Virus record (IMG/VR): IMGVR_UViG_3300005077_000002
Span: 1 to 64,000 of that record
Source of the DNA: a virus
Taxonomy: Duplodnaviria; Heunggongvirae; Uroviricota; Caudoviricetes
Length of the DNA stretch: 64,000 bases
Reading direction: 5' to 3' (one strand)
Shown here: positions 1 through 26,329 of the stretch, piece by piece
How positions within the stretch are numbered: the first letter of the stretch is position 1
Layout: each line of letters begins with the position of its first letter
Position numbers and translations under genes: made by a program
The notes under the pieces: model-generated
Database searches by the model: none
The model's input: the letters and a program-made list of their open reading frames with translations, nothing else
Told to the model about the DNA's origin: nothing

Positions 1-22
1 AAGTTCGGAATTCCGAACTTTT
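1..22. repeat. Perfect palindrome (G)AAAAGTTCGGAATTCCGAACTTTTC, copy 1, truncated by the window edge
   Basis: AAGTTCGGAATTCCGAACTT is self-complementary; an identical copy lies 75 bp downstream. Confidence 0.8.
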
Positions 23-72
23 CCTATAAATGACGATAATGAGATTAATACTCAAAAAGTTGATAAACTACA

Positions 73-4424: not shown

Positions 4425-4447
4425 ATGGTAAACTCCTTAATACTTAG

Positions 4448-4520
4448 AGCTAACGGTCAGACTCGAACTGACGACCTGCCGCTTACAAGGCGGCTGCTCT
4501 ACCAACTGAGCTACGCTAGC
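4448..4520 (-). tRNA. tRNA-Thr (anticodon UGU), 73 nt, CCA not encoded
   Basis: Hand-folded cloverleaf GCTAGCG-TA-GCTC-AGTTGGTA-GAGC-A-GCCGC-CTTGTAA-GCGGC-AGGTC-GTCAG-TTCGAGT-CTGAC-CGTTAGC-T; all four stems pair. Confidence 0.85.
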
Positions 4521-6304: not shown

Positions 6305-6321
6305 AGTGCATAAATATACAG
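6305..6321 (+). promoter_or_regulatory. Palindromic motif AGTGCATAAATATACAG, copy 1 of a promoter/operator family
   Basis: 19-mer GCGAGTGCATAAATATACA is identical to the copy at 13221-13239. Confidence 0.5.
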
Positions 6322-6330
6322 TGACGAAGT

Positions 6331-6347
6331 AGTGCATAAATATGCAT
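6331..6347 (+). promoter_or_regulatory. Palindromic motif AGTGCATAAATATGCAT, copy 2, 26 bp after copy 1
   Basis: TGCATAAATATGCA is near-palindromic; it lies upstream of the + gene at 6605. Confidence 0.5.
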
Positions 6348-6604
6348 TTCGGTAGGGCAGGGTGGGTTGTAGCTGGGCAGGCGAGCCCTTAATAGGGGTT
6401 GAAATGTGGTGTCGGGAGAGAGGGGCCAGGTATGTATTATATGGTACCTACTCGAATTTACGTTTCGAGCCCACCCGGTACTGTATAACACACTTAACCT
6501 GAGCCCTGTTGCTATGAGGGCCTCATCCAAAGTCGGGTGAGTGGGCGTGCATCGTGCGTCAGGTATTGGGTCATATAGCAGACTATCATAAACAGGAGGT
6601 TCGT

Positions 6605-13220: not shown

Positions 13221-13239
13221 GCGAGTGCATAAATATACA
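13221..13239 (+). promoter_or_regulatory. Promoter/operator motif GCGAGTGCATAAATATACA embedded in the long palindrome CCCTGAG...GAGTGCA-N13-TGCACTC...CTCAGGG
   Basis: Identical 19-mer to the copy at 6303-6321; flanking inverted repeats GAGTGCA/TGCACTC and CCCTGAG/CTCAGGG (13200-13262). Confidence 0.55.
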
Positions 13240-13540
13240 TTGTGCACTCACTCAGGGATCTTTGTTGGTGTATCCCGTGGGGGACTGCGCGTGTGTCCAT
13301 GCCTGACTACCATGGATGTGCGGCGCATAGTGGATCTAGTCCATCCGCAAGTGTCAGGTCCGAGTCCTGCTATGCACCAATATTCCTGCTGGCCAGTTGG
13401 GCAGTAAAAGCCTGGCTGGCCTTTATATTTCCTAAAAGAGGGACAGAGGGGAAAGATTTACCTCCTTGGCTCCTTTGCCTCTCTTTTAGGGTGCTCATGC
13501 GTGAGCACTAATCAGTATTAACCAAAGATAGGAGTGACCG

Positions 13541-13930
13541 TTGAAAAAGAAAACCTTCAAGGTTACCGGAACTGACGAATCCGGTAATCCTGTGAATACG
13601 ATTGTACCGGCGAAAGACCGCGCCGGTGTCATACGTCCAATGGCGAAATGCGGAGATCTCGTTGATGATGTGCTGGTCAGCACCATTGAGCAGTTATTGT
13701 TGGATTACTGTGAAGACGATAAAGCCGTCAGAATCAGAATCAAAAAGGATAAATATGATTATTATCATGTGGCCGCTGACATGGCAAAACCAATGAAAAT
13801 GAACCCTATGACAGTGGCAAAATACATAGTAGGGTCATTGGAACGCGCCGGGTTCAGCGTGGCCATGGACAGACCAAGTCATCCATGGGCCTTCAGATTA
13901 AGACTCGGTGACTGGGAACAACAACAATAG
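13541..13930 (+). CDS. Hypothetical protein
   Basis: 129 aa; AGGAG RBS before a TTG start. Confidence 0.55.
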   Translation: MKKKTFKVTGTDESGNPVNTIVPAKDRAGVIRPMAKCGDLVDDVLVSTIEQLLLDYCEDDKAVRIRIKKDKYDYYHVAADMAKPMKMNPMTVAKYIVGSLERAGFSVAMDRPSHPWAFRLRLGDWEQQQ

Positions 13931-14449: not shown

Positions 14450-14632
14450 GGCCCTATTCATGGGTCTCTTACTGCTGGGATACTGGATCTCAGCTAAGTC
14501 AGACGACCTCCCAGAATAGTTAAATATTCTGGCCGCCGCTCCGCTATCCAGGCCATCAGGCGAAATGTGTGAGCCGCGGTTTGAATATTTAAAATCCCCA
14601 ATAAGCCTACTTAAAGCTTGCCGGCACTGGCG

Positions 14633-14654
14633 GGTGTGTATAAATATGCACTCG
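14633..14654 (+). promoter_or_regulatory. Promoter/operator motif GGTGTGTATAAATATGCACTCG
   Basis: Shares the TGYATAAATATGCA core and the TGCACTC arm with the other copies; about 60 bp upstream of the gene at 14715. Confidence 0.5.
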
Positions 14655-14714
14655 TCCTACCCTGCCACTGGGGAATAACTAATAAATATACATAACAGAG
14701 GAGAAGAAAATTAC

Positions 14715-14909
14715 ATGGGAATATCCCATAGAGAACAAGAAATCCTTGACCGCTATTCGGTTGAGGCGGAAGGACTCAGTCCATCCGTATTGAACAGAAT
14801 CATGCACCAGGGAGCGGCGTACCCAGTGTGCAAACATGGCAGCAAAAAGAAGTCCCGCCGCGAAAAGACACGCAAACCCCAGCGTGGGGGAAAACGTGGA
14901 TGCTATTAA
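14715..14909 (+). CDS. Small basic protein
   Basis: GAGGAG RBS; 64 aa with a Lys/Arg-rich C-terminus. Confidence 0.5.
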   Translation: MGISHREQEILDRYSVEAEGLSPSVLNRIMHQGAAYPVCKHGSKKKSRREKTRKPQRGGKRGCY

Positions 14910-15090
14910 AAATCAAAATAAAGCTCAAGGCAAAGTACGTGATAAAAGTACCCGGAATGACAGATTCATCCGCGTCATCCGGTACACCACAAACAATTGC
15001 CCGTTAGAGCTGGGCGATATGGACAACGCAGGATTAGCACGCGCCTGCGAGCATTGTCCTAAGTTAAATGCGTGTGAAAAACTCAATTGA
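14836..15090 (+). CDS. Possible small protein that overlaps the previous ORF in another frame
   Basis: 84-aa ORF containing CxxC/HC motifs; uncertain. Confidence 0.3.
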   Translation: MAAKRSPAAKRHANPSVGENVDAIKNQNKAQGKVRDKSTRNDRFIRVIRYTTNNCPLELGDMDNAGLARACEHCPKLNACEKLN

Positions 15091-15101
15091 AGGAGGTGCT
15101 C

Positions 15102-15332
15102 ATGCACAAAGTCGAAATAGGCAACTTTGTGATATGGCATTCTGGCAGGTTTGTATCCGTGGCTAATACGATAGATGGCCTGCACAGAAAGGCCGTAGCG
15201 GACATTTCCGATAGTCTTATATCAAACTACGGTATAAGACTAAGGAATGGTAAGGCCAGACTCACCGCATTCTCAGAAGTAGCAAAAAACAGGATACAGA
15301 GCTTAATCAACCACGCTCTGACAACCAAATGA
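15102..15332 (+). CDS. Small protein (76 aa)
   Basis: GAAGGAGG RBS before the ATG at 15102. Confidence 0.55.
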   Translation: MHKVEIGNFVIWHSGRFVSVANTIDGLHRKAVADISDSLISNYGIRLRNGKARLTAFSEVAKNRIQSLINHALTTK

Positions 15333-15538
15333 AGAAAGCCGCAATAATAGCAGCACGCCTATCCAGCAAGATTAAAGATGCCCCCTGCACGGTATTCATG
15401 TGCGGTGGCGGATCCAGCAAAACACCGGCAAAAGTGCTGCGCTCGTCAACACCACAGGCGAGCAGAGAAACCCTGGCCATCATGGCTGAAGAAGCCAGAC
15501 GAGGTCGGTGGAGGCCCCCGGAAGGAAGAAAGAGATAA
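15329..15538 (+). CDS. Small basic protein
   Basis: ATGA start/stop overlap with the previous gene. Confidence 0.35.
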   Translation: MKKAAIIAARLSSKIKDAPCTVFMCGGGSSKTPAKVLRSSTPQASRETLAIMAEEARRGRWRPPEGRKR

Positions 15539-15684
15539 GTCCAATGTGGCATAAACGCCACAAAGAACATCATCAATCTACAGAAGGGAGTAAAATTAAT
15601 GATTACATTGTCCACAGTAGGTATAATAATTGGCACGGCATTAATGTTGTGCCTCACCACATCACCACGAAGAAGGAGGATCAA

Positions 15685-16041
15685 ATGAAAACAAAATCCA
15701 CCACCACCGCACACAAAGTACGCAAGGCCCACAAGGCCAGCATACTGCTCAGCAACAACAGAGTGTTAAAGGACCTAGCCAGGGAGAACTGGCTGCGTAA
15801 GCAACAGGACTACTTGAACATGCACCTGACCGGTATGGCTCAGGGCGCTGATACCGTAGCAAAATGGTTCTCAAAGGACCAGCGCGGATTGAAGCAAGTC
15901 GTCAAGGCTCTGTGGCCAATCCTGAAGCACGATGCGCGCCTGCTGGGCAAAGTAACCCAGGAACAGTTATATAAAATCAACACCTTTGTTGCATACCGGC
16001 ATAGCATCGCCGATGCAGCGAAGGAATATATTAACAATTAA
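15685..16041 (+). CDS. Basic protein (118 aa)
   Basis: GAAGGAGG RBS 5 nt before the ATG at 15685 (track ORF from 15508). Confidence 0.55.
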   Translation: MKTKSTTTAHKVRKAHKASILLSNNRVLKDLARENWLRKQQDYLNMHLTGMAQGADTVAKWFSKDQRGLKQVVKALWPILKHDARLLGKVTQEQLYKINTFVAYRHSIADAAKEYINN

Positions 16042-16053
16042 ATCGGAGGAATC

Positions 16054-16479
16054 ATGTCAGAGAACATCACCACCACACCCACACCTGCACCGCAGAGGAA
16101 AAAGCGTCAGACCACACGTGACGCAGTCAGTCGTAAGAACGTAGAACCCCGTGACAATGTAAATAATATTCTAAAAGCGATGAACTCCATCGGATCAGAA
16201 TTCAAACAAATGGTAAAACCTTCGCCGCAAAGCGACGAAGCCCTAAAGCGTAAACTGGATAAGATCAGGGCCTCCGTGGCCCGTGGAGTTACTGTGCAGG
16301 ATAAACAGAGAGAGGAAATCAGTCTCCTGTCAAAGTTCGAACGTGGTAAAACCGTAGCATCAGTTGGCCGGTCCATTCATGGATTATTTACATCAGGCGC
16401 TGACCTGATGAAAGACTTCGCTGAAGGACTTAAGGGAAAACCATCCCGAGCGGAACAAAAACTGATGCAGAATAAATAG
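16054..16479 (+). CDS. Hypothetical protein
   Basis: GGAGG RBS; 141 aa. Confidence 0.6.
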   Translation: MSENITTTPTPAPQRKKRQTTRDAVSRKNVEPRDNVNNILKAMNSIGSEFKQMVKPSPQSDEALKRKLDKIRASVARGVTVQDKQREEISLLSKFERGKTVASVGRSIHGLFTSGADLMKDFAEGLKGKPSRAEQKLMQNK

Positions 16480-16504
16480 CGAGCCTATCCCTCGCTGATA
16501 TAGG

Positions 16505-16535
16505 GTCGGGGTTAACGCCCCGACTCTTTATGTCT
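16505..16535 (+). terminator. Rho-independent terminator
   Basis: GTCGGGG-TTAACG-CCCCGAC hairpin followed by TCTTTATGTCT. Confidence 0.6.
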
Positions 16536-16645
16536 AAACAGCTCTTTAAAGGGATATGAGAGCAAACAACTTATCCGCTAATGGTGGATGTGCGGATTAA
16601 GAATAACTAGTAACCACCAACAATAAAACAGGAGGAAGACACCCT

Positions 16646-17128
16646 ATGATGTCAATGATGAGACTGACCGTGATGGGTCGACTTGGCGGGGATGCTGAAG
16701 TAACGACACTCAGCTCCGGCAAGGAAAAAGCCACAATGAGTGTAGCGATTGACAAAAGCTACAAGAAAGGTGATGAAAAGATCGAGCGTACGGAATGGGT
16801 ACGCATTACGATCTGGGATCCGTCGGACTACTTAAAGGAAAACCTGGCAAAGGGAGCCATGGTTTATGTAGAAGCCGAGCAGCGTACTTCCAAGAAGGAA
16901 GAGGACGGCAAGAATCGGTATTTCTACAATTGGGAGTCCTATCCCAATAACGTCATGGTACTCAAAAACGGTAATGGCGTCGCCAAAGCAGCCGCTGCAA
17001 CAACCGATGAGTATGACGAAGACCTGGCCGAGGATAATCCGGACGAAGAACCGCCGCCGTCGTCATCCACGAAGAAACCCACGTCAAAACCGCCTGCAGG
17101 GGGTAAGGACAAGAAATTACCCTTTTAG
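16646..17128 (+). CDS. ssb: Single-stranded DNA-binding protein
   Basis: OB-fold pattern (RLTVMGRLGGDAEV...TEWVRITIW...LAKGAMVYVEA...YFYNWE), Gly/Pro-rich linker, and a C-terminal acidic/aromatic tail ending LPF. Confidence 0.8.
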   Translation: MMSMMRLTVMGRLGGDAEVTTLSSGKEKATMSVAIDKSYKKGDEKIERTEWVRITIWDPSDYLKENLAKGAMVYVEAEQRTSKKEEDGKNRYFYNWESYPNNVMVLKNGNGVAKAAAATTDEYDEDLAEDNPDEEPPPSSSTKKPTSKPPAGGKDKKLPF

Positions 17129-17494
17129 GCCCTAACTGCCCGCCCCGCGAGGGGCTTGATGCCCCGAGCGGGTGCAGTGGCAATTATTGAAAAGCTCAAA
17201 AGCTTGCCCATTAAGTAAGTGAAGTCGTGTTTTTAATACCGACTGTACAATGGGGCGCCGCTTGCAGAGCATGTCAATAATAAGCCACTCGTCGTGCCAG
17301 TACAAACTGACACGAGGCGTAACGATAGTGAAGCCACGTTGACGAACGACGAGGACTCGTCATAGTGCACGACGTAAAAGCGCGAACTCCGCGCACCGTA
17401 ATTAACCTCGTTACTACAACCTAAAAACCTTGGTACTTGCTCCCGCCGGAGGCGGGGCTACTGACTACACAGTTACTCATAACAAGGAAGGGCA
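17129..17494. other. 365-bp hairpin-dense intergenic region
   Basis: GCCCC-GCGA-GGGGC (GNRA loop), GACGAG-GA-CTCGTC, CCCGCC-GGAG-GCGGG, and long-range CGTCGTGC...GCACGACG. Confidence 0.4.
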
Positions 17495-18196
17495 ATGCAC
17501 GTAGTACTTAGATTCGGAAAGCCTTACCATAAGCTTTCCACGTCCGTCAAGGACTATATAGACAAGCACATTAAAGAAAGAGTACACCCGGGCCACTTGG
17601 TAAATGCACCAGAAATTCCGCCGCAGTCTACCGCGGCAGCTTGCCTAGGTCCGATTCCCGATGACGTTGCAACTTCACTGCAACAACAGATCAATAATCC
17701 AAATACACCATATGCGGGCGCTGCTCTCAGAGAAGCAACCCGCGGCATTCCAATTTCCTGGTACGAAGGATCGTACTGGGCACCCATGGATCCCGATGTC
17801 GACGTCCTATTATACCTGGGGAAGAACCGGCTGTACTACGCCGACCCGCGCCCTGAGTATAAACGGGACGGAGAATCAATCAGTAAGTTGGAATTGGTAA
17901 AAACCATTGCCACATCCAAACCAGTCTGGTCAGTAAAACTGGACGGACAGTTAGGAAATGGCAATAATGAAGCGTTTAAACATGCGCTTGTAATTCGGTA
18001 CGAATTGCTGCGAGGCGCTGATGTTGTAACGCTGTCCCGGAAAGTGAAGATCGACGAGCCTTATGCGGTTGTGAAGGTCCGAGACTCCTGGATTTGGCCT
18101 CTCATCACATTGCACACTGCTACTCTCTTCGAACGCAGTCGAGCCAATCCAGTTAAAGTCTCCACACCTGCAGTTAAACCCGTTAGCTCCGTCTAA
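17495..18196 (+). CDS. Hypothetical protein; last gene of the GC-rich module
   Basis: AAGGAAGGG RBS; 233 aa. Confidence 0.6.
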   Translation: MHVVLRFGKPYHKLSTSVKDYIDKHIKERVHPGHLVNAPEIPPQSTAAACLGPIPDDVATSLQQQINNPNTPYAGAALREATRGIPISWYEGSYWAPMDPDVDVLLYLGKNRLYYADPRPEYKRDGESISKLELVKTIATSKPVWSVKLDGQLGNGNNEAFKHALVIRYELLRGADVVTLSRKVKIDEPYAVVKVRDSWIWPLITLHTATLFERSRANPVKVSTPAVKPVSSV

Positions 18197-18347
18197 CCAT
18201 TGACAACTATAACGACTTCAATCCCACCCTAGTTGTAGCCGTTATATATAACAGTAATCTCTACAGTATAGGGTACCCCTGGTAGTGTCATGCCCCGCGT
18301 ACTTGGCGGGGTATGCACGCTACTGGTTTTATTGTTCAATTAAACAT

Positions 18348-18507
18348 GCCAGCACAGCGCATGGTAGCGCAAGTTCATGGCTTGATGGTGTTGATACTCA
18401 AAAAAAGTCTCAGTAAGGTCGGCAAGTATGACGATACTGAAAGACTGAATACTGGAAAGCGTAAGCTAAACCCTACACCTATACTGGTTCGAATCCAGTA
18501 GCTGGCG
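18348..18507 (+). other. tRNA-like element with canonical 5' acceptor + D-arm and 3' T-arm + acceptor, separated by about 110 nt; an interrupted or intron-bearing tRNA, or an att-like tRNA fragment
   Basis: 5' GCCAGCA-CA-GCGC-ATGGTA-GCGC; 3' ACTGG-TTCGAAT-CCAGT-AGCTGGC-G; the acceptor pairs at 6 of 7 positions; the insert contains GATACT-type internal repeats and an A7 run. Confidence 0.4.
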
Positions 18508-18509
18508 CT

Positions 18510-18761
18510 TTGTATCTTAATCAAAAAATCATTGCTTTGGCTATGGTTTGTACCTGGCTTATGTATATAAATATATACTTTAGGTTACAGGCGTATGGTA
18601 AGAGGTTTGTTATTGGAAGAGGCGGCGACTTGTCCCGGCCCGGGAATAAAACAGAATGTGTCATACATGATTTTCCTAATGGTATGACTGTTCATGAACT
18701 CAAGTATATAATTAAAGACTGGCCGACTGTAAATCAATTTGGTGCGGTTAAAGTTATATAA
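18510..18761 (+). CDS. Hypothetical small protein (uncertain)
   Basis: 83-aa ORF; it contains a TGTATATAAATATATAC motif and copy 1 of the 18-bp GC-rich repeat. Confidence 0.3.
   Translation: MYLNQKIIALAMVCTWLMYINIYFRLQAYGKRFVIGRGGDLSRPGNKTECVIHDFPNGMTVHELKYIIKDWPTVNQFGAVKVI
18615..18632 (+). repeat. GGAAGAGGCGGCGACTTG element, copy 1
   Basis: 18/18 identity with the copies at 19136 and 19476; a GC-rich island in AT-rich DNA. Confidence 0.8.
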
Positions 18762-18851: not shown

Positions 18852-19184
18852 ATGTTTTATTTTCATAACGGAGTACCACGTATACAACTTGGTACTGGCG
18901 ATGTTGCTGTCGGTGTATTGAAATTTTATGATAATCCTAACAAGATAGCCGGTATTGCTTTCACCCAGTGTGAACCTACAGAAATAGGATCTGACATGCC
19001 GGATCTTGATGGTAAGCGAGAAAATGAAGTTAATGCGGTATTTGAGCTGCTGTTTACGGATGTGCGGTCGATCGACGTTGTTTTAAGTCGACTCGAGAAA
19101 GCGAAAGAGATATTTCTGCAACATCAGAATGTCAAGGAAGAGGCGGCGACTTGCTCTAGCCCGGGAAACAACAATGAAGTTTAA
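18852..19184 (+). CDS. Hypothetical protein ending KEEAATCSSPGNNNEV
   Basis: 110-aa ORF; its 3' end carries repeat copy 2. Confidence 0.55.
   Translation: MFYFHNGVPRIQLGTGDVAVGVLKFYDNPNKIAGIAFTQCEPTEIGSDMPDLDGKRENEVNAVFELLFTDVRSIDVVLSRLEKAKEIFLQHQNVKEEAATCSSPGNNNEV
19136..19153 (+). repeat. GGAAGAGGCGGCGACTTG element, copy 2
   Basis: Identical 18-mer, 22 nt upstream of the ATG at 19175. Confidence 0.8.
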
Positions 19185-19545
19185 AGTAAGTACAGAATTG
19201 TTAGTAATAATCTATTATGTGTTTCTGGCAGCGGCAGCTTTCACGGCCGGCTACCTACTATGTGACCATAATTCCCTCAAGATGAAAAGTAAAAATCCAG
19301 TAATGGCTGTTGCTCAGGACATCAGCGGTACAGTATACATTGGTGTACTCCATAAATCTAATGAGCAGGACAATGTGTATTACGGTAGATTTACTAAGCT
19401 GAGTACGGTAGTAAATAAGGACAGTAGCAACAGTACTGTTAAAAAAGGATTCAATGTGGTAAGAGCTGCCAATGTGGAAGAGGCGGCGACTTGTTCCACA
19501 AAAAATACTATAAGGATGAACCATGACAAAGCTTCAGGAACTTGA
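19175..19545 (+). CDS. Membrane-anchored protein (MKFKVSTELLVIIYYVFLAAAAF...)
   Basis: ATG at 19175 (the track ORF starts at 19129 inside the previous gene); N-terminal TM helix; its 3' end encodes EEAATCS via repeat copy 3. Confidence 0.5.
19476..19493 (+). repeat. GGAAGAGGCGGCGACTTG element, copy 3
   Basis: Identical 18-mer, 30 nt upstream of the ATG at 19523. Confidence 0.8.
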
Positions 19546-20295: not shown

Positions 20296-21117
20296 ATGCG
20301 TTTATTTGCAACATTGTTAGCATTATTGATGTTAGTAACATCATGTAAGTTTGCGTCTATCGAAGGCGATGAAGTCGGCGTGATACAAAGAAAACCAACC
20401 ATCTTTAGTATGTTTTACAAAGGTGGTGTGGATAAAAATGCCGCACAACCAGGAACTGTTACCGTCGCCTGGACTACGCAAGTACTACGATTCAAGACTT
20501 CCCCACAGGTATATAAGGAAGTTTTTGATAACATCATTACTGACGACAACAATCCGGTTGATTTTGATTGTTATATAAGTATCAAGATCCAATCGCAGTT
20601 TGCACCAAATCTTTATTCTAACTTTGGTGAGAACTGGTATATAAATAATATTTCTCCTTTAGCCCGAGCAATTATTCGGGACAAATGCTCGCAATATATT
20701 ATGTTTGACTTGGCGGGCAACCGAGAAGTTCTTGAGAATATAGAAAATTTTATGCAGGACTCTCTCAGGAATTACTGTATCGTATCCAACCTACCTGTGT
20801 CAATTATCGATGTAACCATGGGTCAGGTAACTCCACCGGCCGACGTGCTTAAAGAAACCGAAAGAACCGCCGCTGAAAAACAATCCAGCCTTACACAAAA
20901 GGCCCGTTCCAATTCGGAAATCGCTAGAGCCGAAGCAGAGAAGAATAAGGCAATAGCTGATAAAGCATATCGCACAGAAATGGGAATGACAATTACTGAG
21001 TATTTGGAACTTCGAGCAATCGAAGTTGAAAAGGAAAAGGTCGAGATAATTAAGGATAAAAAAGATGTTACTATCGTCTTCACTGGGAATTTGCCCGTGA
21101 GTTATCCGGCAAAATAA
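20296..21117 (+). CDS. Putative lipoprotein (possibly SPFH/band-7-like)
   Basis: Signal peptide with lipobox LVTSC; GGAGG RBS; C-terminal AEAEKNKAIADKAYRTE resembles SPFH proteins (weak). Confidence 0.55.
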   Translation: MRLFATLLALLMLVTSCKFASIEGDEVGVIQRKPTIFSMFYKGGVDKNAAQPGTVTVAWTTQVLRFKTSPQVYKEVFDNIITDDNNPVDFDCYISIKIQSQFAPNLYSNFGENWYINNISPLARAIIRDKCSQYIMFDLAGNREVLENIENFMQDSLRNYCIVSNLPVSIIDVTMGQVTPPADVLKETERTAAEKQSSLTQKARSNSEIARAEAEKNKAIADKAYRTEMGMTITEYLELRAIEVEKEKVEIIKDKKDVTIVFTGNLPVSYPAK

Positions 21118-21128
21118 TTATCTCCGGC

Positions 21129-21222
21129 TCCGGTATAGTATAATGGCAATACAGCCTGAAAGTAATGTGTTACCGTACACAGTATTTCAGGTAATAAGTG
21201 GGTTCGAATCCCACTACCGGAT
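21129..21222 (+). tRNA. tRNA-like gene (94 nt) with about 20-22 extra nt in the anticodon arm; if spliced, the anticodon would be GUA (Tyr); function uncertain
   Basis: Acceptor TCCGGTA/TACCGGA (7/7), D-arm GTAT-AATGGCA-ATAC, T-arm GTGGG-TTCGAAT-CCCAC; extended helix CCTGAAA/TTTCAGG enclosing an inner hairpin TGTGT-TACCGT-ACACA. Confidence 0.45.
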
Positions 21223-23102: not shown

Positions 23103-25325
23103 ATGCGGTATTTAATTTTAATGACCGGTTCGCCAGGTTCCGGAAAATCTACCTGGATTAAAGATCATGGGTTGAAACCATATACCATTTGTCCAGATGA
23201 TATCAGACTGATGTTTCAGACACCGGTTATAACTCCTGAGGGTAGTACGTCTATTTCACAGAAAAATGATAAAGACGTCTGGGAAATACTGTTCAGGATG
23301 CTGGAAAAGAGAATGGAACGTGGTGAGTTTACAGTTATTGACGCAACTCACTCTACAACGGACAGTATGAATGCATATAAGAAATATGCTGAAAAACACA
23401 GATATCGTGTATTCGCTGTTTCATTCCGTGATATACCGTTTCATGAATGTGTGCAGCGTAATTTAAATCGTGAACCATTGAAAATAGTACCTTTTGAAGT
23501 TATCCAGAGAAGTTACGCCAGATATGAAACCGAAGCCGGCCGCATTCCATCTTACATAAAAGTTCTTATGCCAGGCAGTGAGAAAACAATCAATTACAAT
23601 GTTCATGATATGAACAATTATAAAAGGATTCACCATATTGGTGATATTCATGGTTGTTTTGATGTATTGATGAAGTACTTCAGTGAAGTTGGTGTTGATC
23701 CTAATAATCTGCCAGCCGATGAATTGTTCATATTCACTGGCGATTATATTGATCGTGGCATTCAGAATTACGAAGTAGTACAGTATTTATTATCCATCTA
23801 TGCAAAATCTAATGTTATTATGCTGGAAGGCAATCATGAGAAATGGTTAAGACAATATGCTCATGATACCATTGAGCCAAATTGCAGTAAAGAATTCATT
23901 AAAACCATGAAGCAATTCTATACGCATCCAATAGATAAGAAGAAACTTCGTGAGTTTACCCGGCATTTGGCACAACTTACTATTTATGATTACGGATTAT
24001 ACAAGGTTATGGTAACTCATGGTGGTTTACCTTTTATTCCGAAAAATCCATTACTGGTTTCTACCCAGCAGATAATCAACGGTGTTGGCGGATATAATGA
24101 TATTACAATAGTAGATGAATCATTCAGTAAAACGTCAAATGAATCTAATCTATATTATTGTATTTCTATACATGGTCATCGCAATAAAATGGATGAACCC
24201 ATACAATCTTCCAAATACACTTATAATCTTGAAGGTAAAGTTGAATTTGGTGGAATGTTGCGGTGTGTAACACTGGATAAATCAGGCATCAAAACATTCG
24301 AAATCAAGAATGATGTATTTGCAGCCCCGGAATTAATATCAAAATCCGAAAATGATTTATCCGGCACTGCGTTGACTATTAATGAACTTTTTAATGCGCT
24401 TAATACAAGCAAATTCATAAACTCCGTTAATGTTTATGGTGATATTTATTCATTCAATTTCACCAAACAAGCATTCAAACTTAATGAGTGGAATGATCTA
24501 ACAAAGCTTGCCAGAGGTTTATTCATTGACAAGGCCAATATGAAGATAGTGGCCCGCGGATGGCCAAAATTCTTCAATGAAAACGAACCCGAAGTAAATA
24601 ATATTCAGGAATTATCACTCAGGATTGCTTATCCGTTGTCAGTATATCTTAAATACAATGGATTTCTTGGTCTTCTTGGATATGATGGTTCAGATTTCAT
24701 TATGGCATCTAAAAGTTCCACGAATGCATTCCATGCTATGCTGTTTACTACAATGATGCGTAATAGACATGGCGCCAAATTCAATGAATTGCGCGAATAT
24801 ATGTCAGCATCGAATACAACATTGCTATTTGAAGTAATTGATTGTGTCGAAGATCCGCATATTATCTATTATCCTGAGCCAAGAATTGTTTTGTTGGCTG
24901 AAGTAAAGAATGATATCGATTTCGTGCAAACTCCTTATAATGAATTACTCGAACTTGGCAGAAGGTTCGGATTTGAAGTTAAGCAATTAGTACAGGTAAT
25001 TAACAACAAAAACGAATTATTCTCTTTGATTGATTCAACAAAGGGAATAAACACTTCAAATCCTATTGAAGGATATGTGATTGAGGACTCTGGGGGCTAT
25101 ATGCTCAAGGTTAAAACAGAGTATTACAGATATTGGAAAATGATGCGTGCAATCCAGCACAACATTATTAATTCATCGAATCAATCCTTCAGAGGATTAT
25201 TCACTCCTGAAGCCATAAGATTTGTTCAATTCATGAAAAACAAACAACGATTTGAATTAATGGAAAAATCAATCATTCAATTAAGGATGGAGTTCAATGA
25301 AGAATATTTTAAAGCAACTGCGTAG
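23103..25325 (+). CDS. pnkp: Trifunctional Pnkp-like RNA repair enzyme: T4-Pnk-type 5'-kinase, calcineurin-type phosphoesterase, and C-terminal ligase-like nucleotidyltransferase
   Basis: N-terminus GSPGSGKSTW + PDDIRL matches T4 Pnk (GCPGSGKSTW, Asp-x-x-Arg); GDIHG / GDYIDRG / GNHE metallophosphoesterase motifs; C-terminal KYNGF (KxNG variant of the ligase motif I). Confidence 0.75.
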   Translation: MRYLILMTGSPGSGKSTWIKDHGLKPYTICPDDIRLMFQTPVITPEGSTSISQKNDKDVWEILFRMLEKRMERGEFTVIDATHSTTDSMNAYKKYAEKHRYRVFAVSFRDIPFHECVQRNLNREPLKIVPFEVIQRSYARYETEAGRIPSYIKVLMPGSEKTINYNVHDMNNYKRIHHIGDIHGCFDVLMKYFSEVGVDPNNLPADELFIFTGDYIDRGIQNYEVVQYLLSIYAKSNVIMLEGNHEKWLRQYAHDTIEPNCSKEFIKTMKQFYTHPIDKKKLREFTRHLAQLTIYDYGLYKVMVTHGGLPFIPKNPLLVSTQQIINGVGGYNDITIVDESFSKTSNESNLYYCISIHGHRNKMDEPIQSSKYTYNLEGKVEFGGMLRCVTLDKSGIKTFEIKNDVFAAPELISKSENDLSGTALTINELFNALNTSKFINSVNVYGDIYSFNFTKQAFKLNEWNDLTKLARGLFIDKANMKIVARGWPKFFNENEPEVNNIQELSLRIAYPLSVYLKYNGFLGLLGYDGSDFIMASKSSTNAFHAMLFTTMMRNRHGAKFNELREYMSASNTTLLFEVIDCVEDPHIIYYPEPRIVLLAEVKNDIDFVQTPYNELLELGRRFGFEVKQLVQVINNKNELFSLIDSTKGINTSNPIEGYVIEDSGGYMLKVKTEYYRYWKMMRAIQHNIINSSNQSFRGLFTPEAIRFVQFMKNKQRFELMEKSIIQLRMEFNEEYFKATA

Positions 25326-25734
25326 TCAAACTGAACTATTGAGTAAAACATCGCATCCGGAGGATGCAATTAATATCCAGGCTAGAATACTAAATCTGTT
25401 TTCAAAACTGGAATATGGCAGCTCAGATTCAACTCATGCAGGTGCTAATACCATGCTGAACAAATTCGAGGAATTGTTTCCAAATATAAATATTGAATTT
25501 AACCTGGTAATGCTGGTACATAATATCAAATTCAGAATATTTACTTCCTCACTGAATGGAATGTATATCGTTTTAATTGAAGATATGTTAACCGGTGTTA
25601 TGGATGCAGTAAGAGTATTACCTGCATCAAGTGTTATATCATATATCCAGGATTTATGTGACAACATTAATAAACAAGCATCAGATCATGAATTTGAGAT
25701 GCCAAGAGAGGAATATTATGGAACCGAAGATTAA
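25297..25734 (+). CDS. Hypothetical protein
   Basis: 145-aa ORF. Confidence 0.5.
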   Translation: MKNILKQLRSQTELLSKTSHPEDAINIQARILNLFSKLEYGSSDSTHAGANTMLNKFEELFPNINIEFNLVMLVHNIKFRIFTSSLNGMYIVLIEDMLTGVMDAVRVLPASSVISYIQDLCDNINKQASDHEFEMPREEYYGTED

Positions 25735-26329
25735 AGATTTCTACTTCGATGTGGAAACAACGGGGTTTGATCCCGAAAAATGTGGTATTCACCAAATAGC
25801 TTTTGTTATTGCCATTGATGGTAAAGTCGTTGAACGACATTCCATCAACATGCGTCCATTCAAAGATGCTATTATTATGGATGAAGCACTGGAAGTAACC
25901 GGTATTACATTAGAACAAATAAATGCATATCAAACCGAGAAAGATGCTTACAATAAGCTGATAAAGATTTTGTCCAGACATGTGGATAAGTTTAACAAGA
26001 TTGATAAACTCTTTCAAATCGGCTATAACATTGGATTCGATGTGCAGTTTCTGCGAGCCTGGTTTAACAGGGTAGGTGATAAATATTATGGATCATGGTT
26101 CTGGCCAAATCCGTTGGATACAATGTCATTAGCTCTGCAGTATCTTAAATCACGCCGGCATTTAATGATTAATTTCAAACTGGCAACAGTAGCAATGGAA
26201 TTGGAATTGCTGGATGATGTTGAAGAAGAAGAGGAAAAATCATCATCACACAACTTCCATGATGCACTGTTTGACATTGATATTACCAGACAAATATACT
26301 TAAAAGTTACGGGAGCACATTTTGACTAA
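25718..26329 (+). CDS. DEDDh 3'-5' exonuclease (DnaQ / RNase T-like)
   Basis: Exo I FDVETTG, Exo II YNIGFDVQFL, Exo III HDALFDIDIT; GAGAGGAA RBS before the ATG at 25718. Confidence 0.75.
   Translation: MEPKIKDFYFDVETTGFDPEKCGIHQIAFVIAIDGKVVERHSINMRPFKDAIIMDEALEVTGITLEQINAYQTEKDAYNKLIKILSRHVDKFNKIDKLFQIGYNIGFDVQFLRAWFNRVGDKYYGSWFWPNPLDTMSLALQYLKSRRHLMINFKLATVAMELELLDDVEEEEEKSSSHNFHDALFDIDITRQIYLKVTGAHFD

What the first reader, a model, noticed from the sequence alone, without database searches (positions are those of the whole stretch)
18348..18507. Split tRNA-like element: canonical acceptor/D-arm and T-arm/acceptor halves separated by about 110 nt, sitting exactly at the GC-content boundary
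The 5' half (GCCAGCA-CA-GCGC-ATGGTA-GCGC) and the 3' half (ACTGG-TTCGAAT-CCAGT-AGCTGGC-G) have textbook tRNA geometry, and their acceptor strands pair at 6 of 7 positions. About 110 nt lie where a 22-nt anticodon arm plus variable loop should be; this insert contains GATACT(C/G)AAAGWCT internal near-repeats and an A7 run. Three readings are possible: a tRNA carrying a non-group-I intron or insertion of roughly 90 nt, which would be very unusual in a bacterial virus; a tRNA disrupted by a small mobile insertion; or a tRNA-derived structured RNA or attachment-site remnant marking the junction between two differently composed genome modules. A GCGGGG hairpin lies 40 nt upstream.
Basis: seen in the sequence. 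Interest (0 to 1): 0.7.

Follow-up and report, generated by a model that had tools for sequence, protein, structure and literature searches.

The report
Phage tRNA-like gene, anticodon arm replaced
An uncultured phage carries a gene with the full body of a tRNA but 111 unrelated bases where the anticodon arm should be, so it most likely makes a non-decoding tRNA mimic, a kind of phage RNA already known but whose function is unknown.

Summary
At 18348-18507(+) there is a 6/7 Watson-Crick acceptor stem, a GCGC/AUGGUA/GCGC D arm and an ACUGG/UUCGAAU/CCAGU T arm. They enclose 111 nt where a tRNA has 22. The same strict signature never occurred in 1000 shuffled windows. The best-fitting GC change point is 18508, the element's 3' end.

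It is not a recognisable tRNA, intron-containing tRNA, group I intron or tmRNA. ARAGORN in normal, intron and tmRNA modes and Rfam give nothing. No anticodon stem-loop flanks the insert, and the insert alone folds no better than shuffles.

No relative was found in phage, viral, metagenome or genome collections. The phage itself has no close relative, so conservation could not be tested.

A second aberrant tRNA-like gene lies at 21129-21222, with a 29-nt hairpin in place of the anticodon loop. A Pnkp-Rnl1 RNA-repair fusion lies 4.6 kb downstream.

Best reading (about 0.45): a non-decoding tRNA-like small RNA, comparable to T4 RNAC. Rivals are a decaying tRNA relic at a module junction, and a Lak-megaphage-style "enigmatic intron" tRNA.

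Interest is moderate.

The parts
18281..18334 (+). Long GC-rich hairpin (18281-18324) followed by GG and TTTTATTG. Probably the intrinsic terminator of ORF 17495-18196, or an RNase III-type processing stem.
   Evidence: fold of 18280-18540 pairs 18281-98 with 18306-24. The simple terminator scan did not flag it, because the stem is imperfect.
18348..18371 (+). 5' half of the tRNA body: acceptor strand GCCAGCA, C8 A9, D arm GCGC-AUGGUA-GCGC (A14, G18 G19, A21 present), A26.
   Evidence: D-stem pairing probability is 0.75-0.88. ARAGORN accepts this half when a borrowed anticodon arm is spliced in.
18372..18482 (+). 111-nt insert in place of the anticodon arm and variable loop. Sub-features: a stub hairpin C-AAG/UUCAUGG/CUU-G at 18370-84, with a 7-nt loop carrying U33-like U and CAU; helix GGUGU 18387-91 / ACACC 18475-79; a hairpin at 18406-46; and a GNRA hairpin AGC-GUAA-GCU at 18458-67.
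   Evidence: Pairing probabilities: central hairpin about 0.85, GNRA hairpin about 0.9, GGUGU/ACACC about 0.5, CAU stub about 0.3. The insert alone has z = -0.85 against shuffles. No Rfam match at E<=10.
18483..18507 (+). 3' half of the tRNA body: T arm ACUGG-UUCGAAU-CCAGU (G53:C61, T54 Psi55 C56 R57 A58 positions canonical), acceptor strand AGCUGGC, discriminator G. No encoded CCA.
   Evidence: A 20-nt exact match covers the T arm and acceptor of a normal tRNA-Met(CAU) in a 315-kb IMG/VR phage contig (L083:11289-11365). The same T arm occurs in the tRNA-Met of Streptomyces phage Comrade.
18508..18508 (.). Compositional change point: about 48% GC to the left, about 37% GC to the right.
   Evidence: maximum-likelihood change point 18508, support 18311-18648.
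21129..21222 (+). Second aberrant tRNA-like gene. It has a perfect 7-bp acceptor, a D arm, anticodon stem GCCUG/CAGGU, a 29-nt self-pairing 'loop', a 5-nt variable loop and a T arm.
   Evidence: Found by my own scan. Rfam tRNA scores 44.2 bits with relaxed filters. The fold is a clean cloverleaf with z = -5.2. ARAGORN intron mode calls it tRNA-Tyr(gta) i(32,20), but that reading gives A33 and U37.
23103..25325 (+). Polynucleotide kinase / phosphatase / T4-Rnl1-type RNA ligase fusion, a tRNA healing-and-sealing enzyme. It is context only; a functional link is inferred, not shown.
   Evidence: Pfam AAA_33, Metallophos and RNA_lig_T4_1. Homologues in other large phages lie next to tRNA clusters.
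4447..4520 (-). The only canonical tRNA in the window, tRNA-Thr(UGU). By my reading, its 5' half matches the element's 5' half at about 20 of 26 positions.

Best explanation
The locus is a real tRNA-derived gene that no longer encodes a decoding tRNA. It keeps the acceptor stem, D arm and T arm, with every nucleotide that builds the tRNA elbow. The anticodon arm and variable loop are replaced by a 111-nt domain made of several short hairpins.

The most likely product is a stable tRNA-like small RNA. It would be transcribed with, or read through from, the upstream genes. RNase P would cut its 5' end, and its 3' end would be trimmed and given CCA by host enzymes, because those enzymes read only the acceptor/T-arm/elbow half of a tRNA. 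That step follows from established knowledge of RNase P and the CCA-adding enzyme; it was not shown here.

The tRNA body would then serve as a processing and stability scaffold, or as a mimic that occupies tRNA-binding proteins, while the expanded arm carries whatever specificity the RNA has. The phage has at least two such genes (the second at 21129-21222) and an Rnl1-type tRNA repair enzyme. One attractive target is therefore the conflict between host tRNA-cleaving defences and phage repair, but that step is pure inference.

The element's 3' end also marks the junction between two differently composed blocks of one phage genome.
For: - The geometry is canonical and non-random: 0 hits in 1000 strict shuffles against 3 real hits.
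- The two halves, joined to a borrowed anticodon arm, are called a tRNA by ARAGORN at its default threshold.
- In the isolated 160-nt RNA the pairing probabilities are acceptor 1.0, D arm about 0.8 and T arm about 0.64. The whole element has z = -2.9.
- No reading restores a decodable anticodon arm.
- A second gene with the same theme, an intact body and an expanded anticodon arm, lies 2.6 kb downstream on the same strand and scores 44 bits against the tRNA model.
- Precedents exist. T4 RNAC is a 139-nt stable RNA with a CCGGG-UUCGAAU-CCCGG T arm and acceptor-like ends (5/7 by my reading). It is expressed, and its function is still unknown.
- The Markov-normalised tetranucleotide signature of 9-18.3 kb correlates with the right-hand blocks (0.26-0.45) about as well as those blocks correlate with each other (0.35-0.51). 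This argues for one genome rather than a chimera.
Against: - No relative exists, so there is no covariation or conservation evidence.
- The insert alone is no more stable than shuffles.
- Position 8 is C rather than U, and the 7:66 pair is an A-A mismatch.
- No promoter-like site was found between the upstream gene and the element, and a terminator-like hairpin sits 16 nt upstream.
- There are no expression data.
- The link to the Pnkp-Rnl1 enzyme rests on proximity only (4.6 kb).
Confidence: 0.45

Rival explanations
1. It is a decaying tRNA gene, a pseudogene or relic. A former tRNA, perhaps of the Met/CAU type, had its central part scrambled by insertion or recombination when two genome modules were joined at this point. 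Only the outer halves still look like a tRNA.
For: - The GC change point falls exactly at the 3' end.
- The insert is not more structured than shuffles.
- C8 and the A7-A66 mismatch are departures from a working tRNA.
- There is no promoter, and a terminator-like hairpin lies just upstream.
- A stub hairpin with a UUCAUGG loop, plus a 3' half identical over 20 nt to a phage tRNA-Met(CAU), could be remnants of the original tRNA.
- No homologue or normal-length version of this D arm occurs in 185,579 species' genomes.
Against: - Both arms and 6 of 7 acceptor pairs are perfect Watson-Crick, and all elbow nucleotides are intact, which is unexpected under neutral decay.
- A second gene with the same kind of change in the same arm argues for a selected design.
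- There is no trace of a tandem-duplicate origin: the two halves do not align, scoring 15 against a shuffle mean of 22.
Confidence: 0.27
2. It is a functional tRNA gene interrupted by a non-self-splicing insertion of about 80-110 nt, like the 79-114-nt 'enigmatic introns' of Lak megaphage tRNAs. An endonuclease would remove the insert and the phage Pnkp-Rnl1 enzyme would reseal the RNA.
For: - Lak phage tRNA-Tyr, Phe, Thr and Gly genes of about 155-190 nt carry 79-114-nt inserts of unknown mechanism (PMC6784885 text and Table S6).
- Deleting 79 nt (18385-18463) gives an ARAGORN 'tRNA-Ala(GGC)' of 82 nt.
- A healing-and-sealing ligase is encoded 4.6 kb away.
- ARAGORN intron mode calls the neighbouring element 2 tRNA-Tyr(gta) with a 20-nt intron.
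Against: - In Lak genes the insert sits at 37/38 inside a canonical anticodon stem-loop. Here no such stem-loop exists.
- The single deletion solution lacks the Ala identity pair G3:U70 and has G73. A complementary 5-mer somewhere in about 100 nt is expected by chance roughly half the time (my estimate).
- I saw no bulge-helix-bulge motif.
- No splicing endonuclease or Tpt1 was found among the ORFs scanned.
- Element 2's 'spliced' loop has A33 and U37.
Confidence: 0.15
3. It is an attachment-site remnant. A mobile element or a whole module integrated site-specifically into the 3' end of a tRNA(-like) gene, which explains the sharp GC change at 18508.
For: The change point is exactly at the discriminator base. 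tRNA 3' ends are classic integration sites (established knowledge).
Against: - No integrase domain was found in the ORFs scanned on either side.
- The 3' half has no direct-repeat copy of 12 nt or more elsewhere in the window.
- Both flanks carry core phage replication genes in the same orientation and share an oligonucleotide signature.
- This reading does not explain the 111-nt insert.
Confidence: 0.06
4. It is an assembly chimera or a chance resemblance.
For: The source is a metagenome contig, and the GC shift is abrupt.
Against: The strict signature never arises in 1000 shuffles. The tetranucleotide signatures of the two sides agree as well as blocks within one side do. Gene orientation is continuous across the junction.
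Confidence: 0.04

Closest known systems
Bacteriophage T4 RNAC (species 1 RNA, rnaC; NC_000866 70908-71046)
   Same: Both are phage-encoded RNAs of about 140-160 nt. The 3' end is a canonical T arm (GGUUCGAAUCC) followed by a strand that pairs with the 5' end like an acceptor stem, with about 100 nt of other hairpins between. Neither has an anticodon loop, and the function is unknown.
   Different: T4 RNAC has no recognisable D arm, and by my reading only 5/7 acceptor-like pairs. It sits inside the T4 tRNA cluster. My blastn searches of the phage collection, a collection that holds T4, returned no match beyond T-arm-sized pieces. The present element keeps a full D arm and elbow.
Lak megaphage tRNA genes with 'enigmatic introns' (Devoto et al. 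2019, PMC6784885, Table S6)
   Same: These are phage tRNA genes of about 155-190 nt in which 79-114 nt interrupt the anticodon region. They have no Rfam match and no known splicing mechanism.
   Different: In Lak genes the insert lies at position 37/38 within an intact anticodon stem-loop with a readable anticodon, and the insert itself contains a nested T arm and acceptor-like unit. Here there is no flanking anticodon stem-loop and no nested T arm, and I saw no resemblance between the inserts by eye (not aligned).
Class II tRNAs (long variable arm) and tRNA-scaffold RNAs
   Same: One reading gives a five-helix core: acceptor, D arm, short CAU hairpin, helix GGUGU/ACACC, T arm. This is the class II topology.
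   Different: The 'variable arm' would be about 97 nt rather than at most about 21 nt. The 'anticodon stem' has only 3-4 bp, there is no nucleotide 26, and position 37 is G next to a CAU triplet.
tmRNA and bacterial Y RNA (YrlA) tRNA-like domains
   Same: Both are non-decoding RNAs that mimic the acceptor/T-arm half of a tRNA.
   Different: ARAGORN tmRNA mode and Rfam are negative. There is no G3:U70. The only reading frame through the element runs into the T arm and acceptor strand, so it is not a credible tag ORF. At 160 nt the element is shorter than typical tmRNAs (recalled as about 230 nt or more). In YrlA the RNA ends lie in the Ro-binding stem rather than the acceptor stem, which is the opposite topology (from my recollection of the literature, not tested).

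Membership tests
Canonical tRNA (Rfam RF00005 / ARAGORN) | Covariance-model score at or above the gathering threshold (29 bits), or an ARAGORN call | tested here: not met
   Nothing at gathering. With relaxed filters there is only 13.4 bits (E 8.3) for the mini-helix 18461-18507. ARAGORN at default finds nothing.
Canonical tRNA (Rfam RF00005 / ARAGORN) | 7-bp acceptor stem, a D arm with A14/G18G19/A21, and a T arm with a TPsiCRA loop and G53:C61 | tested here: met
   (6/7 acceptor pairs; all other features present; C8 in place of U8). The two halves plus a borrowed anticodon arm are called a tRNA.
Canonical tRNA (Rfam RF00005 / ARAGORN) | 5-bp anticodon stem with a 7-nt loop (U33, purine 37) at the correct spacing | tested here: not met
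   The 111 nt between A26 and the T stem contain only a 3-4 bp stub with loop UUCAUGG (probability about 0.3).
Protein-spliced intron-containing tRNA (archaeal/eukaryal type, or Lak-phage type) | Insert within or next to the anticodon loop, flanked by an anticodon stem; removal restores a tRNA with matching identity elements | tested here: not met
   ARAGORN intron mode (0-3000 nt) finds nothing that uses these halves. Of 1357 deletion variants, one solution family appears (Ala-GGC, 15-nt variable region), but it lacks G3:U70 and A73.
Protein-spliced intron-containing tRNA (archaeal/eukaryal type, or Lak-phage type) | A spliced mature product in vivo | not testable with these tools
   This needs RNA-seq or a Northern blot.
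Group I intron in a tRNA gene | P1-P9 core detectable by the Rfam group I intron model, and a size of about 200 nt or more | tested here: not met
   No Rfam hit at E<=10 in 18200-18650. The insert is only 111 nt.
tmRNA | tmRNA covariance model or ARAGORN -m call; G3:U70; a tag reading frame | tested here: not met
   ARAGORN -m finds nothing even at ps80/ps90. No Rfam hit. The 3:70 pair is C-G.
T4 RNAC-like phage stable tRNA-like RNA | About 140-nt RNA with a 3' T arm and acceptor-like pairing of the termini, and no anticodon | tested here: met
   The architecture was compared directly with T4 rnaC (against 1, 13).
T4 RNAC-like phage stable tRNA-like RNA | Sequence homology to rnaC | tested here: not met
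   blastn of the locus and of the element against 50,697 phage records, a collection that holds T4, returned only T-arm-sized matches. There was no direct pairwise alignment to rnaC.
T4 RNAC-like phage stable tRNA-like RNA | Accumulates as a stable processed RNA during infection | not testable with these tools
   No expression data are available for this uncultured phage.
tRNA-gene integration site (attL/attR remnant) | A recombinase nearby and a direct repeat of the tRNA 3' segment at the other end of the inserted block | tested here: inconclusive
   No integrase domain was found in the scanned ORFs, and no repeat of 12 nt or more occurs in the window. Both blocks run beyond the 64-kb window.

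The most novel reading that the evidence does not exclude
The phage deliberately builds RNAs on a tRNA chassis; at least two were found in 64 kb. There are two versions of this reading. In the first, these are precursors that are cut and resealed by the neighbouring Pnkp-Rnl1 enzyme, which would be the first enzymatic (non-self-splicing) tRNA splicing pathway encoded by a bacteriophage. In the second, they are tRNA-shaped decoys whose expanded arm traps a host tRNA-targeting defence nuclease or a tRNA-modifying enzyme.
Probability: 0.1. Interest if true: 0.8.

Novelty: new variant of a known kind. Interest (0 to 1): 0.4.

Why it matters
Phage tRNA-like RNAs have been known since T4 RNAC, and their function remains unexplained. 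The 'introns' of Lak megaphage tRNAs are equally unexplained. This locus adds a third design: a complete tRNA body with the whole anticodon arm swapped for a 111-nt domain. It sits beside a second gene of the same type and near a tRNA repair ligase, in a phage lineage with no close relatives.

If the RNA is expressed, it would be a natural 'tRNA scaffold' RNA and a candidate player in the conflict over tRNA cleavage and repair.

It also has a practical lesson. Default tRNA finders and Rfam gathering-threshold scans missed both aberrant genes, so such elements are probably under-counted in phage genomes.

Tried and rejected
**Searches for relatives (all failed)**
- blastn of the locus and of the element against 50,697 phage records gave only T-arm-sized hits.
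- The flanking 233-aa and 110-aa proteins have no relatives in IMG/VR. The 233-aa protein has only itself among 5.8 billion proteins.
- The source contig (JGI, 188,693 bp) could not be retrieved.
- IMG/VR pattern scans for the D arm plus T loop found nothing. The element 2 3' half gave no hits. The element 1 3' half gave one hit, a normal tRNA-Met.
- Metagenome scans: the 21-mer of the 5' half gave 0 hits. A relaxed D-loop...T-loop pattern gave 71 hits, all unrelated; by my reading they are tandem tRNAs or coincidences.
- Genome scans (185,579 species): the 3' half gave 0 hits. This D arm at normal tRNA spacing gave 0 hits.

**Synteny routes (failed)**
- Pnkp-Rnl1 homologues are at most 45% identical. 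Their loci hold ordinary tRNA clusters and nothing like this element.
- The SPFH homologues examined sit among bacterial housekeeping genes, not phage genes.
- The 18-nt repeat GGAAGAGGCGGCGACTTG gave only three hits in IMG/VR, which I judged chance-level. Window ORFs have no tblastn match to those loci.

**Readings rejected**
- tmRNA and group I intron: negative.
- Known small ribozymes and Y RNA: no Rfam family of any kind matched at E<=10.
- Remnant of two tandem copies of one tRNA: intact tandem tRNAs do produce the same about-160-nt signature in other loci, but here the interior shows no similarity to the outer halves.
- Antisense target in the window: no complementarity of 12 nt or more.
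- The ARAGORN ps80/ps90 call 'tRNA-Phe(aaa) 18297-18508 with a 126-nt intron' is spurious. Its acceptor is poor, and the same threshold gives several other calls in the window that I consider spurious.

**Not established**
- The 20-nt identity to the L083 tRNA-Met could be chance, given the very large number of tRNAs in IMG/VR (my estimate). No protein similarity links L083 to this phage.

Full report
**What is there**

The acceptor 5' strand GCCAGCA is at 18348-54, followed by C8 A9. The D arm is GCGC-AUGGUA-GCGC (18357-70), and A26 is at 18371. Then come 111 nt (18372-18482). The T arm is ACUGG-UUCGAAU-CCAGU (18483-99), the acceptor 3' strand AGCUGGC is at 18500-06, and the discriminator G is at 18507. 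Six of the seven acceptor pairs are Watson-Crick, and 7:66 is A-A.

The nucleotides that build the tRNA elbow are all present: A14, G18, G19, A21, T54, Psi55, C56, R57, A58 and G53:C61. Only U8 is replaced, by C. No CCA is encoded.

**Is it more than chance?**

I wrote a scanner for a T arm, a complementary acceptor, and a D arm at the correct spacing, allowing any insert up to 450 nt. With lenient rules it finds 0.06 hits per dinucleotide-shuffled window. With rules as strict as the observation it finds none in 1000 shuffled windows. In the real window it finds three: this element, the genuine tRNA-Thr(UGU) at 4447-4520(-), and an unannounced second element at 21129-21222.

When the two halves are joined to a borrowed anticodon arm and variable loop, ARAGORN calls a normal 72-nt tRNA at its default threshold. 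The halves therefore form a competent tRNA body.

**The GC boundary**

GC is 0.47-0.49 up to about 18.3 kb and 0.35-0.38 from 18.5 kb to the end of the window. The maximum-likelihood change point between 6 and 40 kb is 18508, the base after the discriminator. The 2-lnL support interval is 18311-18648. Third-codon-position GC is also lower on average to the right: 0.40-0.59 on the left against 0.31-0.40 on the right.

Genes run on the + strand across the junction. The Markov-normalised tetranucleotide signature of 9-18.3 kb correlates with the right-hand blocks (0.26-0.45) about as well as those blocks correlate with one another (0.35-0.51). I therefore read this as a module junction inside one genome rather than an assembly chimera. 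Only read mapping can settle that.

**Context**

The window is part of a large uncultured phage. P0001, P0002 and P0122 are 100% identical proteins on a single JGI contig of 188,693 bp.

- The left block encodes a PD-(D/E)XK nuclease, RNase H, SSB and many proteins with no relatives.
- The right block encodes an SPFH protein, a kinase-phosphatase-Rnl1 RNA ligase fusion (23103-25325), a DEDD exonuclease, an AAA ATPase, a family A DNA polymerase and ribonucleotide reductase.

The polymerase is only 22-28% identical to any phage in GenBank. The ligase fusion is at most 45% identical to anything among 5.8 billion proteins. The phage therefore has no close relatives in these collections.

ORF 17495-18196 ends 85 nt before a long GC-rich hairpin (18281-18324), which is followed by TTTTATT. 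The element starts 16 nt after that. No sigma-70-like promoter lies between them.

**What it is not**

- ARAGORN finds nothing with default, intron (0-3000 nt) or tmRNA settings. At reduced thresholds it only produces a call that uses the upstream hairpin as a poor acceptor, alongside several other calls in the window that I consider spurious.
- Rfam at gathering thresholds finds nothing here. With relaxed filters and E<=10, the only matches in 18200-18650 are a 13.4-bit tRNA alignment of the mini-helix 18461-18507 and a 12.7-bit match to nuoG at 18517-18530 (E 5.4), which I take to be chance. Nothing matched group I introns, ribozymes, tmRNA or Y RNA.
- No 5-bp stem with a 7-nt U33 loop flanks the insert.

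I deleted every stretch of 60-105 nt within the insert, giving 1357 variants, and ran ARAGORN on each. One solution family appears: removing 79 nt, for example 18385-18463, gives a 'tRNA-Ala(GGC)' of 82 nt with a 15-nt variable region. It has C3-G70 instead of the alanine identity pair G3:U70, and G73. By my estimate, a complementary 5-mer somewhere in about 100 nt is expected by chance about half the time. I do not regard this as evidence for an intron.

**Structure of the insert**

Folded as an isolated 160-nt RNA, the acceptor (probability 1.0), D arm (about 0.8) and T arm (about 0.64) form. The whole element is more stable than shuffles (z = -2.9). Inside the insert the predicted elements are:

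- a hairpin at 18406-46 (probability about 0.85);
- a GNRA hairpin AGC-GUAA-GCU at 18458-67 (about 0.9);
- a helix GGUGU(18387-91)/ACACC(18475-79) (about 0.5);
- a stub hairpin C-AAG/UUCAUGG/CUU-G at 18370-84 (about 0.3).

Together these would give a five-helix core like a class II tRNA, with a truncated anticodon-like arm (loop U-U-CAU-G-G) and a variable arm of about 97 nt.

However, the insert alone is not more stable than shuffles (z = -0.85). Without homologues none of these helices can be confirmed.

**Ancestry hint**

The last 20 nt of the T arm and acceptor occur exactly once in IMG/VR. The match is in a normal 77-nt tRNA-Met(CAU) of a 315-kb phage contig (L083:11289-11365). That tRNA has essentially the same acceptor stem (GCCAGCU/AGCUGGU) and the same T arm. 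The same T arm plus AGC occurs in the tRNA-Met of Streptomyces phage Comrade.

Together with the CAU-loop stub, this suggests descent from a Met/CAU-type tRNA. The evidence is weak. Given the very large number of tRNAs in IMG/VR, one such match could be chance (my estimate). The D arms differ. No protein similarity links the two phages in the 15 kb available.

The element's 5' half also matches the window's own tRNA-Thr 5' half at about 20 of 26 positions, by my reading of the alignment.

**The second element**

At 21129-21222(+), 11 nt after the SPFH gene, lies a 94-nt cloverleaf:

- a 7/7 acceptor stem (UCCGGUA/UACCGGA) followed by U8 A9;
- D arm GUAU-AAUGGCA-AUAC, then A26;
- anticodon stem GCCUG/CAGGU;
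- a 29-nt 'loop' that self-pairs (AAA/UUU, an internal loop, UGUGU/ACACA, hexaloop);
- variable loop AAUAA and T arm GUGGG-UUCGAAU-CCCAC (z = -5.2).

It scores 44.2 bits against the Rfam tRNA model with relaxed filters. It was missed by the gathering-threshold run and by default ARAGORN. ARAGORN intron mode calls it tRNA-Tyr(gta) with a 20-nt intron, but the resulting loop has A33 and U37. No simple excision gives U33.

So two genes within 2.6 kb of each other, on the same strand, keep an intact tRNA body and have an enlarged, non-decoding anticodon arm. This is the main argument that element 1 is a design rather than debris.

**Search for relatives**

Every route failed (details are under 'tried and rejected'). 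Conservation and covariation, the usual tests of a structured RNA, are therefore unavailable. This limits confidence in any functional reading.

**Comparison with known systems**

- T4 RNAC (species 1 RNA) was fetched from NC_000866. It is a 139-nt stable RNA ending in CCGGG-UUCGAAU-CCCGG plus a strand that pairs 5/7 with its 5' end (my reading), with about 100 nt of hairpins between. It is expressed late, and its function remains unknown (PMC9697503, PMC3014915). It lacks a D arm.
- Lak megaphages carry tRNA-Tyr, Phe, Thr and Gly genes of about 155-190 nt with 79-114-nt 'enigmatic introns' (PMC6784885). There the insert sits at 37/38 inside an intact anticodon stem-loop. Reading the Table S6 sequences, each insert appears to contain a nested T-arm and acceptor unit.

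The present element shares size and theme with both but fits neither. It is a full tRNA body whose entire anticodon and variable region is replaced.

**Verdict**

The specific 'intron' reading is not supported. The 'tRNA-derived RNA at a module junction' reading fits best.

I favour a non-decoding, RNase P/CCA-processed tRNA-like small RNA (about 0.45). The alternatives are a decaying tRNA relic (about 0.27), a Lak-type interrupted tRNA that is somehow spliced (about 0.15), an att remnant (about 0.06), and a chimera or chance (about 0.04).

Processing by RNase P and the CCA-adding enzyme is inferred from what those enzymes are known to recognise. Any link to the Pnkp-Rnl1 repair enzyme or to host anticodon nucleases is speculation based on proximity.

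This is a new variant of a known but unexplained kind of phage RNA. It is moderately interesting, and cheap to test by RNA-seq or a Northern blot.

Noticed in passing
window 21129-21222 (+): A second aberrant tRNA-like gene. It is a perfect cloverleaf body with a 29-nt self-pairing hairpin in place of the 7-nt anticodon loop. Rfam tRNA scores 44.2 bits only with relaxed filters. Default ARAGORN and the gathering-threshold scan both missed it. ARAGORN intron mode says tRNA-Tyr(gta) i(32,20), but that reading gives A33 and U37.
   Followed up: partly
window 18615-18632, 19136-19153, 19476-19493 (+): An 18-nt GC-rich motif, GGAAGAGGCGGCGACTTG, repeated exactly three times just right of the GC boundary (0.02 expected by chance). 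Each copy lies about 40-50 nt upstream of a likely start codon, and the flanks are not conserved. Two copies lie in ORF 3' ends, where they encode 'EEAATC'. It looks like a regulatory DNA or RNA site for the first genes of the low-GC block.
   Followed up: partly
window 6305-6322, 6331-6348, 13224-13241, 14635-14652: A palindromic motif resembling AGTGCATAAATATGCACT occurs four times, only in the high-GC block (5 matches against 0.17 expected). It is a candidate operator or promoter element. A weaker AT-rich inverted repeat, GTATATAAATATATAC, sits at about 18565-18580.
   Followed up: no
window 14500-17500: There is a strong excess of A over T on the + strand (AT skew 0.2-0.4) across the last genes of the high-GC block, including the SSB gene at 16646-17128.
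   Followed up: no
window 23103-26329: A three-domain kinase / metallophosphatase / T4 Rnl1-type RNA ligase fusion (740 aa) is followed immediately by an RNase T/DEDD-type exonuclease gene (25631-26329). In two other large phages examined (L001, L002), homologues of the fusion lie beside tRNA clusters.
   Followed up: partly
window 13541-13930 (+): A 129-aa ORF has a borderline Pfam match to the N-terminal domain of arginyl-tRNA synthetase (E 4e-4; 21.4 bits against a cut-off of 21.5). As I recall, that domain binds the tRNA D loop. It lies 4.4 kb upstream of the element.
   Followed up: no
window 20296-21117 (+): The phage SPFH/Band 7 gene has its closest homologues (about 50% identity) on contigs of bacterial housekeeping genes. 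One neighbour carries a Por secretion tail domain, which I associate with Bacteroidota, a weak host hint.
   Followed up: partly
L083:11289-11365 (IMGVR_UViG_3300044712_000810, 314,837 bp): A normal tRNA-Met(CAU) in a jumbo-phage tRNA cluster shares a 20-nt exact 3' segment and essentially the same acceptor stem with element 1. This could indicate ancestry, or it could be coincidence.
   Followed up: partly
window 1-24 and 76-99: An exact 24-nt direct repeat, AAGTTCGGAATTCCGAACTTTTCC, occurs at the very start of the window. Each copy is itself a hairpin followed by a T-run (terminator-like).
   Followed up: no
L044, L047, L035 and other metagenome loci: Tandem identical tRNA genes give the same 'split tRNA of about 160-230 nt' signature in a naive scan, because the 5' half of copy 1 pairs with the 3' half of copy 2. 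This is a general false-positive source for this kind of finding. It was excluded here because the interior contains no tRNA halves.
   Followed up: yes
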